Source: Naegleria gruberi
Lineage: Eukaryota
Direction: 5' to 3' (one strand)
Assembly: GCA_000004985.1 (NCBI GenBank)
Contig: GG739564.1
Length of the DNA: 1,095 nucleotides
Below are positions 1 to 1,095 of the stretch, one piece after another. Below the pieces are notes generated by a model that was given only the letters and a program-made list of their open reading frames with translations, was not told the DNA's origin and searched no databases. Both the position numbers and the translations under genes were made by a program. Within the stretch, counting starts at the first letter, position 1; every line of letters starts with the position of its first letter.

Positions 1-16
1 ATTAAGTGCAAATAAG

Positions 17-25
17 GAGGTGAGT
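17..25 (+). other. Candidate 5' splice donor GAG|GTGAGTA. Alternatively it is a chance match. It overlaps a Shine-Dalgarno look-alike.
   Basis: AAGGAG|GTGAGTAT at 14..27 matches the donor consensus at all 9 positions. The ORF has no ATG until 65. The stretch 20..50 is very AT-rich and ends ...TTTATTAAAG (49..50 = AG). Confidence 0.2.
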
Positions 26-64
26 ATTAATTGGAATTTATTTATTAAAGAAAATGAACAGTCA

Positions 65-835
65 ATGAGAGTACCTGGACCAGTTTATGATCCATCCTAT
101 CGATTGTCAATTACATCATCACCTTCATTCTCTTTTGGAAGAAGAACACCACTGCCAAGTGATCAAGTACTTCTTGAACATCCTGGGTTAACAGATTACA
201 ACAAACAATTCGTTTCTCATTCTTTTTCCCTTCAGGGCAAAGATAGAGAAGTTGACCCAAATATTACATATAACGCTCCAAGAGCAAGATTTTTGGGAGA
301 TCAATTTTTGAACGAGAACCTGGGAAGAGCATCTCCAGGACCAAAGTATAATATAACTCAAAGTTTTGTCATTCCATCCAAGAGACATGTTGAGGAAGAT
401 CACATCCTGACATTCAAAGCTAAAGAAAAGAAAAAGAAGGACAAACCGATTCCTACACAAGTTTATCCTGGTTATAGTATTTCCAAGGCTTCTGCTCAAA
501 TTACTGAAAGTCCTGGGTGTGTTTACACTCCAAAAACAGATTTCTCGTCACGAGTCCCAAGAGTATGCAGCCCTGTAATGAAAGTAGCAAAACCAGTGGA
601 TAACAGAAAAGCTCCTGAAATTTATCCTCAATTAAGAAATCCAAATCTTACAGCACTTTCAAATGTCCCAACTTCAACAGTACCAAAGTTCATAAGAACT
701 GGAAATACTGTTGGTGTTAGAACTCCTCCTCTGATTTCCCATTCTCCTGGTCCAGTTTATAAAGTTGACTGGGAATCATTGGAAAAGAATGCAAAGAAAG
801 GTTTACCTGGAGGTAAGTTTGGAGGCCTTTCGTAA
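65..835 (+). CDS. STPG/SHIPPO-repeat protein (ODF3-like, sperm-tail PG-rich repeat family). It is probably a single large exon. The 5' boundary is uncertain: the frame is open from 20 but the first in-frame ATG is at 65. The 3' end is either TAA 833..835 or a splice donor at 812|813.
   Basis: The track gives a 271-aa open frame (20..835), the only long one in the window. The translation carries repeated PGP-x-Y and P-S-F-S-F-x-G-R motifs: VPGPVYDPSY...SPSFSFGRR, HPGLTDYNKQFVSHSFSLQGK, NAPRARFLGD, SPGPKYNITQSF, YPGYSISKAS, SPGCVYTPKTDF, TVPKFIRTGN, SPGPVYKVDW. They closely resemble ODF3 as I recall it (SPGPKYLIP / SPGPRYNVNPK / PAYSFRG / PSFSIKGR). The coding region is less AT-rich than the spacer that follows it. 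Codon third positions are A/T-biased throughout. Confidence 0.65.
   Translation: MRVPGPVYDPSYRLSITSSPSFSFGRRTPLPSDQVLLEHPGLTDYNKQFVSHSFSLQGKDREVDPNITYNAPRARFLGDQFLNENLGRASPGPKYNITQSFVIPSKRHVEEDHILTFKAKEKKKKDKPIPTQVYPGYSISKASAQITESPGCVYTPKTDFSSRVPRVCSPVMKVAKPVDNRKAPEIYPQLRNPNLTALSNVPTSTVPKFIRTGNTVGVRTPPLISHSPGPVYKVDWESLEKNAKKGLPGGKFGGLS
74..90 (+). repeat. DNA-level copy 1 of the PGPVY repeat core (CCTGGACCAGTTTATGA). It pairs with 746..762.
   Basis: 15 of 17 nt are identical to 746..762 (CCTGGTCCAGTTTATAA). These encode the first (VPGPVYD) and last (SPGPVYK) SHIPPO units. Confidence 0.5.
746..762 (+). repeat. DNA-level copy 2 of the PGPVY repeat core. It pairs with 74..90.
   Basis: See the paired feature. 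Related copies with 'TCCTGGGT' occur at 181..188 and 511..518, and a related 'TCCAGGACC' copy at 333..341. Confidence 0.5.
810..819 (+). other. Candidate 5' splice donor GGAG|GTAAGTT. The exon would end at 812 in phase 1.
   Basis: This is a 9/9 match to the metazoan MAG|GTRAGT donor consensus. It sits 21 nt before the in-frame stop. A T-rich tract ending in TTTTTAG at 861..867 would give a 55-nt intron (813..867), typical of short-intron eukaryotes. Confidence 0.35.
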
Positions 836-839
836 TAAA
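834..839 (+). promoter_or_regulatory. AATAAA hexamer overlapping the TAA stop (cgTAATAAAttt). It is a candidate polyadenylation signal for the + strand gene.
   Basis: The motif is seen directly. A second AATAAA lies at 913..918. AATAAA is expected fairly often by chance in AT-rich DNA. Confidence 0.25.
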
Positions 840-875
840 TTTCGTTTTGATTCTCACTATTTTTTAGAAATTTAA

Positions 876-881
876 TTTATT
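876..881 (-). promoter_or_regulatory. AATAAA on the minus strand (TTTATT on +). It is a candidate polyadenylation signal for the convergent minus-strand gene.
   Basis: It lies 55 nt downstream (minus sense) of the TAG stop at 938..936, inside the AT-rich spacer. Confidence 0.2.
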
Positions 882-912
882 ACAATTTAATTGTCATTAA
901 GACTCGTGATTG

Positions 913-918
913 AATAAA
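913..918 (+). promoter_or_regulatory. Second AATAAA hexamer. It would be the relevant poly(A) signal if the 813..867 intron is spliced, because the spliced ORF would then stop at 873..875.
   Basis: The motif is seen directly. It lies 38 nt downstream of the alternative stop. Confidence 0.2.
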
Positions 919-921
919 TTG

Positions 922-941
922 CTGTAGATTGCTATCTACAG
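922..941. other. Perfect inverted repeat or hairpin: CTGTAGAT-tgct-ATCTACAG (8-bp stem, 4-nt loop).
   Basis: Read directly from the sequence. The right arm contains the TAG stop (938..936, minus strand) of the convergent ORF. It sits at the junction of the AT-rich spacer and that ORF. Confidence 0.6.
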
Positions 942-1094
942 AATGCTTACATATTTGTTAAGGTCTTTGCTCCATTCATAGTTTTCGTGAAGCCAGTCGT
1001 TCCTTTCTTTCCAGATGCTGGTGTTAGCTTTTGTGGTTTCTTTGATTATGATTTTGTGACATTCATTGCCAATGAAGTCTAGTTTTTGTCCAGT
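936..1094 (-). CDS. C-terminal fragment of an unidentified protein, convergent with the STPG gene. The N-terminal part lies beyond the right edge of the window. It translates as TGQKLDFIGNECHKIIIKETTKANTSIWKERNDWLHENYEWSKDLNKYVSIL*.
   Basis: On the minus strand, a frame of 52 codons is open from the window edge (1094) down to a TAG stop at 938..936. The other two minus frames hit stops within 5-11 codons. Amino-acid composition is protein-like: Lys, Glu and Asn are common and Trp is present. Base composition over 940..1095 is about 40% GC, similar to the STPG CDS and unlike the AT-rich spacer at 836..935. A plus-strand frame (918..1082) is also open across this region. It has no Met and is 20% Phe, so I treat it as the antisense shadow. 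Confidence 0.3.
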   Translation of the reverse strand, partial: TGQKLDFIGNECHKIIIKETTKANTSIWKERNDWLHENYEWSKDLNKYVSIL

Positions 1095-1095
1095 G

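What the first reader, a model, noticed from the sequence alone, without database searches (positions are those of the whole stretch)
20..835. A eukaryotic axonemal/sperm-tail (STPG/SHIPPO, ODF3-like) gene, so the window is not a prokaryotic locus
The only long ORF encodes a protein built from repeats of the form PGPxY plus P-S/A-F/Y-S-F/I-x-G-R, the hallmark of the sperm-tail PG-rich repeat family (ODF3/SHIPPO1, STPG1/2). Several stretches are near-identical in pattern to human ODF3 as I recall it: 'SPGPKYNITQSF' versus 'SPGPKYLIP' and 'SPGPRYNVNPK', and 'SPSFSFGRR' versus 'PAYSFRG' and 'PSFSIKGR'. To my knowledge the family is restricted to eukaryotes with cilia or flagella. Two canonical GTRAGT splice donors and AATAAA hexamers support that. 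The contig should be treated as eukaryotic, either host or contaminant sequence, and not mined for prokaryotic systems.
Basis: partly seen in the sequence, partly recalled or inferred. Interest (0 to 1): 0.6.

Follow-up and report, generated by a model that had tools for sequence, protein, structure and literature searches.

The report
Naegleria flagellar PG-repeat protein gene
The window is a small, already deposited piece of the nuclear genome of the amoeboflagellate Naegleria gruberi carrying the last exon of an ODF3/STPG-type (sperm-tail PG-rich repeat) flagellar microtubule-binding protein, followed by the tail of a retrotransposon, so it is ordinary eukaryotic DNA and not a prokaryotic locus.

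Summary
The window matches a 1095-nt Naegleria gruberi scaffold: join(62..812,928..1082) translates exactly to NCBI XP_002667959.1. join(2..19,62..835) gives the exact C-terminal 263 residues of the 519-aa N. gruberi protein NAEGRDRAFT_68853.

That full-length protein passes Pfam's SHIPPO-rpt threshold (28.4 bits against a cut-off of 20). A profile of its heterolobosean orthologues hits ODF3/CIMAP1A and Tetrahymena STPG2 chains from solved doublet-microtubule structures (E 7e-10 to 3e-6).

Corrections:
- The ORF does not start at GTG 20. Positions 20..61 are a 42-nt in-frame intron.
- The window-encoded part alone is below the Pfam threshold (15.4 bits). It holds one complete repeat, two further PGPxY cores and some degenerate remnants.
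- GTAAGT at 813 is not a splice donor. It encodes part of the conserved C-terminus GKFGGLS.
- The GTRAGT count is at chance level.
- Window ~861..1095, minus strand, is probably the 3' end of a non-LTR retrotransposon. The NCBI partial gene model wrongly splices into its antisense strand.

Likely mechanism, inferred from Tetrahymena cryo-EM: an extended protein whose PG motifs bind successive tubulin dimers along axonemal doublet microtubules. Ordinary and already known, so low interest.

The parts
2..19 (+). End of the penultimate exon (codons L S A N K E). AAG GAG|GTGAGT is a consensus 5' splice site that happens to look like a bacterial AGGAGG ribosome-binding site followed by a GTG start.
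   Evidence: Spliced join(2..19,62..835) equals the exact C-terminus of NAEGRDRAFT_68853. Orthologues read DKLSxxK..R.PGP without the 14 extra residues.
20..61 (+). Intron of 42 nt (GTGAGT...AACAG). It is in frame and free of stops in this copy, which is why the mechanical ORF appears to start at GTG 20.
   Evidence: The gene model P0003 skips it. In the 98.8%-identical contig L001, the C-to-T difference at position 59 creates an in-frame TAG while keeping the AG acceptor. The segment is absent from the N. fowleri, N. lovaniensis and Willaertia orthologues.
62..835 (+). Last exon: 257 codons (SMRVPGP...GGKFGGLS) plus stop TAA at 833-835. This is the C-terminal half of an STPG/SHIPPO-repeat protein.
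   Evidence: All 7 of 7 differences from L001 inside this interval are synonymous third-position changes. The C-terminus GKFGGLS is conserved in three other heteroloboseans. Identical to P0003 residues 263-519.
74..145 (+). The one complete SHIPPO/PG-rich repeat unit in the window (PGPVYDPSYRLSITSSPSFSFGRR).
   Evidence: Pfam SHIPPO-rpt best stretch at ORF residues 19-45. Own repeat HMM gives i-E 8.8e-7. Aligned to Tetrahymena STPG2 and ODF3 repeats.
335..349 (+). PG core PGPKY (SPGPKYNI), invariant in all five aligned relatives.
   Evidence: i-E 8.8e-5.
746..760 (+). PG core PGPVY (SPGPVYKVDW), conserved within Naegleria.
813..818 (+). GTAAGT, a donor look-alike inside coding sequence (codons of G-K-F). 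It is not used as a splice site.
   Evidence: It encodes part of the conserved C-terminal GKFGGLS. The NCBI partial model that uses it joins onto the antisense of a retroelement.
834..839 (+). AATAAA overlapping the stop codon (TAATAAA). Candidate polyadenylation signal of the gene.
   Evidence: Present and identical in L001. Its function is inferred only.
861..1095 (-). 3' end of a probable non-LTR (LINE-like) retrotransposon inserted tail-to-tail just after the gene's 3' UTR. It consists of an ORF C-terminus (939..1094, stop 936..938), a 3' UTR with a hairpin (922..941), AATAAA (876..881 on the - strand) and an A-run (861..866). The element runs off the window end.
   Evidence: Window 866-1095 has no counterpart in L001, which continues with unrelated sequence. 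The region is 76% identical at DNA level, and the 52-aa peptide 71% identical, to a second copy on L002; the two copies stop matching right after the A-run. Upstream in L002 there is a CxCx7Hx4C motif (zf-RVT, E 0.013) and an RNase H match (E 1.2e-4), both below the Pfam cut-offs.

Best explanation
The window is a short unplaced scaffold of the Naegleria gruberi nuclear genome. It holds the last 18 nt of one exon, a 42-nt intron, and the terminal exon of a gene whose product is identical to the C-terminal half of NAEGRDRAFT_68853. That protein is a 519-aa member of the sperm-tail PG-rich repeat family (STPG/SHIPPO; ODF3 = CIMAP1). The window is therefore an allelic or redundant copy of that locus. 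It differs from the related contig L001 by a retrotransposon tail inserted about 25 nt after the stop codon.

How the protein most likely works is inferred, not shown. It is an extended protein without a globular fold. Its PGPxY cores act as microtubule-binding motifs that sit in the groove between protofilaments of the flagellar doublet microtubules. Spacers of about 35-40 residues let successive motifs reach successive 8-nm tubulin dimers, so one molecule staples or marks a long stretch of a protofilament pair in the flagella that Naegleria builds de novo when amoebae turn into flagellates.

The canonical repeat array, with spacings of 35-38 residues, lies mostly in the N-terminal half, outside the window. 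The window-encoded half keeps four PG cores that are invariant among relatives, embedded in more degenerate spacers.
For: Identity:
- Exact reconstruction of two NCBI N. gruberi proteins from the window (names).

Coding and gene structure:
- 7 of 7 synonymous differences from a 98.8%-identical environmental contig, and an in-frame TAG in that contig's copy of the intron.
- Orthologues in N. fowleri, N. lovaniensis and Willaertia magna, with a conserved C-terminus.

Family:
- SHIPPO-rpt at 28.4 bits, above the cut-off of 20, for the full-length protein.
- 21 of 24 relatives carry the repeat.
- Orthologue profile against PDB: ODF3 in the sea-urchin sperm doublet 8snb (E 7e-10), mouse 8iyj (7e-8) and bovine 8otz (1e-7), and Tetrahymena STPG2 8g2z (3e-6).

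Mechanism:
- Kubo et al. 2023 (PMC10105768) showed by cryo-EM that PGPGxY/PGPxY is a microtubule-binding motif, that ~40-aa spacers span 8 nm, and that STPG1A/STPG2 bind the outer wedge between protofilaments.
- Strict cores in P0003 lie at residues 120, 157, 192, 230 and 267, spaced 35-38 apart.
- The AlphaFold model has no confident fold (pLDDT 41.6, almost no secondary structure), which is compatible with an extended binder.

Context:
- In L001 the gene is divergently adjacent (~430 bp) to an axonemal-type dynein heavy chain gene carrying DHC_N1 and DYH2-5-8_CC.
Against: - The window-encoded half alone does not reach Pfam significance, and a single-sequence search against PDB was not significant (E 0.36).
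- Beyond residue ~320 of P0003, no solved ODF3/STPG chain aligns, and motif spacing there is irregular at 25-51 residues.
- No expression, localisation or binding data for this Naegleria protein could be retrieved.
- The low-confidence AlphaFold model rests on only 5 sequences, so it is weak evidence of disorder.
Confidence: 0.9

Rival explanations
1. A prokaryotic gene: AGGAGG at 15-20 serves as ribosome-binding site, GTG at 20 as start, and the PG-rich matches are only low-complexity similarity.
For: An AAGGAGG string lies directly before GTG 20 and a 271-aa ORF is uninterrupted. The Pfam hit on that ORF alone is sub-threshold.
Against: - There is no spacer between AGGAGG and GTG.
- The window reproduces two N. 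gruberi proteins exactly, with splicing.
- The related contig has a stop codon inside 20..61.
- The only relatives are heterolobosean and other SHIPPO-repeat proteins.
- No relatives were found in the GTDB species genomes.
- Neighbours in L001 are a dynein heavy chain and other eukaryotic genes.
Confidence: 0.01
2. The NCBI partial model XP_002667959.1 is the true structure: the donor at 813 is used, an intron spans 813..927, and a further coding exon spans 928..1082 on the + strand.
For: The deposited model exists and translates exactly from the window. GTAAGT...TGTAG are formally canonical splice sites.
Against: - The unspliced reading ends in GKFGGLS, conserved in N. fowleri, N. lovaniensis and (as SFGGLD) Willaertia, and is used by the full-length model P0003.
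- Exon '928..1082' is the antisense of a conserved minus-strand ORF shared with an independent retroelement copy.
- That sequence is absent from the same locus in L001.
Confidence: 0.03
3. The protein is an STPG-family member but works elsewhere than on axonemal doublets, for example on basal bodies, rootlet or cortical microtubules of the flagellate, or in a non-microtubule role. Alternatively, the window copy is a non-functional duplicate disrupted in its 3' UTR by the retroelement.
For: - No localisation or expression data were found.
- The C-terminal half has degenerate, irregularly spaced motifs.
- The insertion sits about 25 nt after the stop codon and could affect 3' end formation.
Against: - Every solved relative hit by the profile is a doublet-microtubule component.
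- The PG motif was shown to be a tubulin-binding element.
- The CDS in the window is intact and identical at protein level to the reference gene, and its own AATAAA at 834 precedes the insertion.
Confidence: 0.08

Closest known systems
NAEGRDRAFT_68853 (XP_002675856.1, UniProt D2VIZ6), 'predicted protein' of Naegleria gruberi
   Same: The spliced window product is identical to its residues 257-519. Same intron position and same stop codon.
   Different: The window is a separate 1095-nt scaffold whose sequence after about nt 860 is a retroelement tail, not the downstream sequence seen at this locus in L001. The reference model itself probably omits 7 residues (ENYIYFG) upstream of the window.
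ODF3 / CIMAP1A (SHIPPO1) and ODF3L1 / CIMAP1C of animal sperm flagella (PDB 8snb, 8iyj, 8otz)
   Same: Same PGPxY...P[SA][FY]SF repeat type. Significant profile similarity (E 7e-10 to 6e-3) across P0003 residues ~114-319, which includes the first repeats encoded in the window.
   Different: The Naegleria protein is about twice as long (519 vs ~250-277 aa). It has a Ser/Asn-rich N-terminal extension and a ~200-aa C-terminal part, most of the window, that does not align to ODF3. Single-sequence similarity is not significant, and no orthology is shown.
Tetrahymena thermophila STPG1A / STPG2 (PDB 8g2z; Kubo et al. 2023, PMC10105768)
   Same: STPG2 uses the five-residue P-G-P-x-Y form of the motif, as this protein does. 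Repeats are spaced by roughly 40 residues. Profile hit E 3e-6.
   Different: Whether the Naegleria protein also threads into the lumen, and which protofilament pair it occupies, is unknown. The proteins share only the repeats.
Non-LTR (LINE-like) retrotransposons with a C-terminal CCHC motif and RNase H in ORF2
   Same: For window 861-1095 (- strand): an ORF C-terminus, then a short 3' UTR, AATAAA and an A-run ending the element at a T-rich target. A second, diverged copy elsewhere has a CxCx7Hx4C motif and RNase H-like sequence upstream.
   Different: No reverse-transcriptase domain is visible in the 235 nt available. The Pfam hits in the related copy are below threshold. No target-site duplication can be checked.

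Membership tests
Sperm-tail PG-rich repeat proteins (Pfam PF07004 SHIPPO-rpt; STPG / ODF3 = CIMAP1) | Score at or above Pfam's gathering threshold (20 bits) for SHIPPO-rpt | tested here: met
   The full-length gene product P0003 scores 28.4 bits, E 3.1e-6, in 3 stretches. The part encoded in the window alone does NOT meet it: 15.4 bits, E 0.043.
Sperm-tail PG-rich repeat proteins (Pfam PF07004 SHIPPO-rpt; STPG / ODF3 = CIMAP1) | Several tandem units with a P-G-P-(G)-x-Y core followed by a P-[SA]-[FY]-S-F-G-like half | tested here: met
   Seven strict cores in P0003 (residues 120, 157, 192, 230, 267, 354, 491), three of them in the window. At least 3 PGPxY occurred in 0 of 20000 shuffles. In the window there is one complete unit plus two PG half-units and degenerate remnants.
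Sperm-tail PG-rich repeat proteins (Pfam PF07004 SHIPPO-rpt; STPG / ODF3 = CIMAP1) | Spacing of about 40 residues between PG cores (the 8-nm tubulin-dimer spacer of Kubo et al. 2023) | tested here: inconclusive
   Spacings are 37, 35, 38 and 37 residues for the first five cores, the fifth being in the window. Spacing in the window half is irregular: 36, 25, 26, 39, 20, 34 and 44 when degenerate cores are counted.
Sperm-tail PG-rich repeat proteins (Pfam PF07004 SHIPPO-rpt; STPG / ODF3 = CIMAP1) | Significant sequence similarity to experimentally placed family members | tested here: met
   The orthologue profile A1 hits ODF3/CIMAP1A (8snb, 8iyj, 8otz) and STPG2 (8g2z) at E 7e-10 to 3e-6. The single sequence gives only E 0.36.
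Sperm-tail PG-rich repeat proteins (Pfam PF07004 SHIPPO-rpt; STPG / ODF3 = CIMAP1) | Found in eukaryotes that build cilia or flagella and absent from prokaryotes | tested here: met
   The source is Naegleria gruberi, an amoeboflagellate. Orthologues are found in other heteroloboseans. No relative was found in GTDB bacterial or archaeal species genomes, though the prefilter used only two peptide patterns, so sensitivity was limited. Restriction of the whole family to ciliated eukaryotes was not tested.
Sperm-tail PG-rich repeat proteins (Pfam PF07004 SHIPPO-rpt; STPG / ODF3 = CIMAP1) | Physical association with axonemal microtubules, or flagellar expression | not testable with these tools
   No expression or localisation data were retrievable. 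The only circumstantial support is the neighbouring divergent axonemal dynein heavy chain gene in L001.
Non-LTR retrotransposon (for window 861-1095, - strand) | Reverse transcriptase (and endonuclease) ORF | not testable with these tools
   Only the last 52 codons lie in the window. The related 1065-nt contig L002 shows only RNase_H (22.7 bits, below cut-off 25.8) and zf-RVT (16.6 bits, below 27.5).
Non-LTR retrotransposon (for window 861-1095, - strand) | 3' end made of a short UTR, poly(A) signal and A-tail, with multiple diverged copies in different flanks | tested here: met
   The window copy and the L002 copy align up to AATAAA, about 12 nt and an A-run, then diverge. The L001 allele of the locus lacks the element. 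Only two copies were seen.

The most novel reading that the evidence does not exclude
The retroelement tail at 861-1095 may represent a so far undescribed, recently active and insertionally polymorphic non-LTR retrotransposon family of Naegleria. Its 3' recognition element would be the hairpin spanning the ORF stop codon (922-941), which is kept by compensatory changes between copies. Separately, the ~520-aa heterolobosean STPG protein, with about 12 PG cores, could act as a 96-nm-scale ruler on the outside of doublet microtubules, as Kubo et al. speculated for the Tetrahymena ODF3L proteins.
Probability: 0.2. Interest if true: 0.25.

Novelty: already known. Interest (0 to 1): 0.06.

Why it matters
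The practical value is triage. This contig is eukaryotic (Naegleria) sequence and should be removed from any scan for prokaryotic or viral systems. It also shows how an exon end plus 5' splice site (AAGGAG|GTGAGT) and an in-frame intron can mimic a bacterial RBS, start codon and ORF.

Two minor points for curators:
- The deposited partial model XP_002667959.1 is chimeric with the antisense of a retroelement.
- The reference model NAEGRDRAFT_68853 probably lacks 7 conserved residues.

Biologically it adds nothing unexpected. A flagellated protist is expected to have ODF3/STPG-type axonemal proteins.

Tried and rejected
The family call therefore rests on the full-length protein and on profiles.
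- Single-sequence phmmer of P0003 against PDB was not significant (E 0.36).
- Exact-sequence contig look-ups for P0003 and P0001 found nothing, so the 396-kb reference scaffold could not be compared. Allele versus duplicate stays open.
- Literature:
  - A search for Naegleria + SHIPPO found no papers, and CIMAP1A + doublet microtubule found none.
  - One Naegleria paper has no supplementary files held, and the supplements of a second held no entry for gene 68853, ODF3 or STPG; the first paper's main text mentions none of them either.
  - The differentiation microarray paper (PMC2987438) is not held.
  - The phylogenetic-profiling paper PMC5850483 does not mention ODF3 or STPG.
- AlphaFold2 on the 5-sequence alignment gave pLDDT 41.6. 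No fold search was run, because matches from such a model would be meaningless.
- Rfam gave one weak chance-level match, SNORA38 at 18 bits against a gathering score of 60. I rejected it.
- The GTDB scan found no bacterial or archaeal relative.
- I considered ciliate-type tiny introns and an alternative genetic code. I dropped this once the Naegleria identity was established.
- Counts of GTRAGT and AATAAA were tested against shuffles. GTRAGT is at chance, and AATAAA is modestly enriched only when both strands are counted.
Full report
**What is in the window**

The 1095-nt window is AT-rich, with 32-40% G+C. It has one long ORF, 20..835 on the + strand, of 271 aa with a GTG start. The next longest ORF is a 103-aa antisense one.

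The translation contains PGPVY, PGPKY and PGPVY, at nt 74-88, 335-349 and 746-760. It also holds one complete PGPxY...SPSFSFGRR unit and several degenerate cores: PGLTDY, PNITY, PTQVY, PGCVY and PEIY. Three exact PGPxY cores never arose in 20000 shuffles of the same residues.

GTRAGT is present at 20 and 813. AATAAA is present at 834 and 913 on the + strand and three times on the - strand. The GTRAGT count is what chance gives: 52 of 200 shuffles had at least 2.

**Where the window comes from**

A search of 5.8 billion proteins returned 'predicted protein, partial [Naegleria gruberi]' (XP_002667959.1 / EFC35215.1) at E 1e-164. Its only contig on record is 1095 nt long, the same as the window. 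Its 90% cluster also contains the 519-aa XP_002675856.1 (NAEGRDRAFT_68853, UniProt D2VIZ6), which sits on a 396-kb scaffold.

- join(62..812,928..1082) of the window translates exactly to XP_002667959.1.
- join(2..19,62..835) gives exactly the last 263 residues of NAEGRDRAFT_68853.

The window is thus a small N. gruberi scaffold duplicating the 3' half of that gene. Naegleria is a heterolobosean amoeboflagellate that builds basal bodies and flagella de novo during differentiation (PMC4819266).

**Gene structure**

Positions 2-19 are the end of an exon (LSANKE). Positions 20-61 are a 42-nt intron (GTGAGT...AACAG). Positions 62-835 are the terminal exon plus stop codon.

Three independent lines support the intron:
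- The full-length NCBI model skips it.
- The N. fowleri, N. lovaniensis and Willaertia magna orthologues lack the 14 residues it would encode.
- In a 12.3-kb environmental contig (L001) that is 98.8% identical over window 1-865, the single difference in this interval turns the in-frame CAG into TAG while keeping the AG acceptor.

The 'GTG start preceded by AAGGAGG' is therefore an exon end plus a consensus 5' splice site, and the intron merely happens to be in frame and open.

Within 62-835, all seven differences from L001 are synonymous third-position changes. That is the signature of a functional coding sequence.

The second donor look-alike (GTAAGT, 813) is not a splice site. It encodes part of GKFGGLS, the C-terminus conserved in the other Naegleria species and, as SFGGLD, in Willaertia. 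AATAAA at 834 overlaps the stop codon and is conserved in L001, so it is a plausible poly(A) signal. This is inference only.

**Family**

The window ORF alone gives only a sub-threshold SHIPPO-rpt hit: PF07004, 15.4 bits, E 0.043, cut-off 20.

The full-length protein passes, at 28.4 bits and E 3e-6. An exhaustive HMMER scan of 1.84 billion representatives found only 23 relatives at E<=1e-3. Of the 24 proteins aligned (P0003 and 23 relatives), 21 carry SHIPPO-rpt, with a best E of 1e-82.

A profile of the five closest relatives hits solved axonemal proteins:
- ODF3 in the sea-urchin sperm doublet (8snb, E 7e-10).
- ODF3/CIMAP1A in mouse (8iyj, 7e-8) and bovine (8otz, 1e-7) sperm doublets.
- Tetrahymena STPG2 (8g2z, 3e-6).
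- ODF3L1/CIMAP1C (6e-3).

These alignments span P0003 residues ~114-319 and so reach into the first ~60 residues of the window's exon. The remaining ~200 window-encoded residues do not align to any solved chain.

An HMM built solely from repeat units outside the window recovers one full unit (i-E 9e-7) and one PG half-unit (9e-5) in the window part, plus weak remnants. No relative was found in one genome per 185,579 bacterial and archaeal species, although that prefilter is coarse.

**Mechanism (inferred)**

Kubo et al. 2023 (PMC10105768) reported several findings for Tetrahymena doublets:
- PGPGxY (STPG1A) or PGPxY (STPG2) is a microtubule-binding motif.
- Spacers of ~40 residues act as 8-nm spacers, so successive motifs bind successive tubulins along a protofilament.
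- These proteins lie in the outer wedge between protofilaments and partly thread into the lumen.

The Naegleria protein uses the PGPxY form. Its cores at residues 120, 157, 192, 230 and 267 are spaced 35-38 residues apart. The cores at 267, 303, 354 and 413 are invariant across the five aligned relatives. An AlphaFold2 model has no confident fold (pLDDT 41.6, pTM 0.15, almost no secondary structure). That is compatible with an extended, partner-dependent conformation, although the alignment was shallow.

In L001 the gene lies about 430 bp from, and divergent to, a dynein heavy chain gene with axonemal-type domains, DHC_N1 and DYH2-5-8_CC.

I therefore consider it most likely (about 0.6-0.7) that the protein decorates flagellar doublet microtubules with one PG motif per tubulin dimer. 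None of this is shown for Naegleria. I could retrieve no expression or localisation data.

**The 3' end of the window**

Window 866-1095 has no counterpart in L001, which continues with unrelated sequence after a T-run.

On the minus strand this stretch encodes the last 52 residues of an ORF (939..1094, stop at 936..938). After the ORF come a hairpin that spans the stop codon (922..941), AATAAA (876..881) and an A-run (861..866) that abuts the STPG gene's 3' UTR.

The peptide is 71% identical, and the DNA 76% identical, to a second copy on an unrelated 1065-nt metagenome contig, L002. The two copies align up to the A-run and diverge immediately after it.

Upstream in L002 there is a CxCx7Hx4C motif (zf-RVT, E 0.013) and, in an adjacent frame, an RNase H match (E 1.2e-4). 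Both are below the Pfam cut-offs.

The most economical reading is the 3' end of a non-LTR retrotransposon inserted tail-to-tail behind the gene. This would also explain why the assembly broke here.

The + strand 'exon' 928..1082 of the NCBI partial model is the antisense of this ORF, so that model is chimeric. Both copies fold into a stop-codon-spanning hairpin whose inner pairs differ compensatorily: AU/AU in the window against GCC/GGC in L002. The folding z-scores are -3.6 and -5.5. With only two sequences this is merely suggestive.

**Comparison, novelty and verdict**

The sequence is already in NCBI and belongs to a well-known eukaryotic family. Finding it in a flagellated protist is expected.

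Four details need correcting: the ORF start, the second 'donor', the AATAAA at 913, and the strength of the Pfam hit on the window alone.

Interest is low. The residual points are the mis-annotated gene models and a possibly undescribed Naegleria retroelement.

Noticed in passing
window 861-1095 (- strand): Probable 3' end of a non-LTR retrotransposon: ORF C-terminus, 3' UTR, AATAAA and A-run. It is inserted tail-to-tail about 25 nt after the STPG gene's stop codon. It is absent from the same locus in L001, and a diverged copy is present on L002.
   Followed up: partly
window 922-941 (- strand RNA); L002 877-900: An 8-9-bp hairpin spans the retroelement ORF's stop codon. The outer stem (CUGUAG/CUACAG) is identical in both copies, while the inner pairs differ compensatorily (AU/AU against GCC/GGC). 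A second hairpin encloses the AAUAAA. Folding z-scores are -3.6 and -5.5. This could be a 3' recognition element for the element's reverse transcriptase.
   Followed up: partly
window 813-1082 (+): NCBI model XP_002667959.1 uses GTAAGT at 813 and TGTAG at 927 as an intron, then reads 928..1082, which is the antisense of the retroelement ORF. The model is chimeric. The true C-terminus is GGKFGGLS, with the stop at 833-835.
   Followed up: yes
window 13-25 (+): AAGGAGGTGAGT looks like a Shine-Dalgarno sequence plus GTG start. It is in fact an exon end plus 5' splice site (AAG GAG|GTGAGT), and the 42-nt intron is in frame and stop-free in this copy. This is a trap for prokaryotic gene callers run on eukaryotic contaminant contigs.
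   Followed up: yes
L001 9731-9790 (upstream of the window's start; window nt 1 = L001 9795): The reference model NAEGRDRAFT_68853 appears to use a weak acceptor (TTTGGAG). Using the better acceptor 21 nt upstream (TTTTTCAG) stays in frame and adds ENYIYFG, which matches the DFTFFG / DFIFFG conserved before DKLS in N. fowleri and N. lovaniensis. The deposited model therefore probably lacks 7 residues.
   Followed up: partly
L001 2743-8968: The STPG gene is divergently adjacent (~430 bp between starts) to a dynein heavy chain gene with axonemal-type domains (DHC_N1, DYH2-5-8_CC, DHC_N2, AAA_6). This could be a shared bidirectional flagellar promoter.
   Followed up: no
L001 (ENA ERZ929261, PRJEB11402 metagenome contig, 12353 nt): An environmental metagenome contains a Naegleria contig 98.8% identical to N. 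gruberi NEG-M over this gene. Prokaryote-style gene calling split the gene into two 'proteins' (257 and 256 aa) at the introns.
   Followed up: partly
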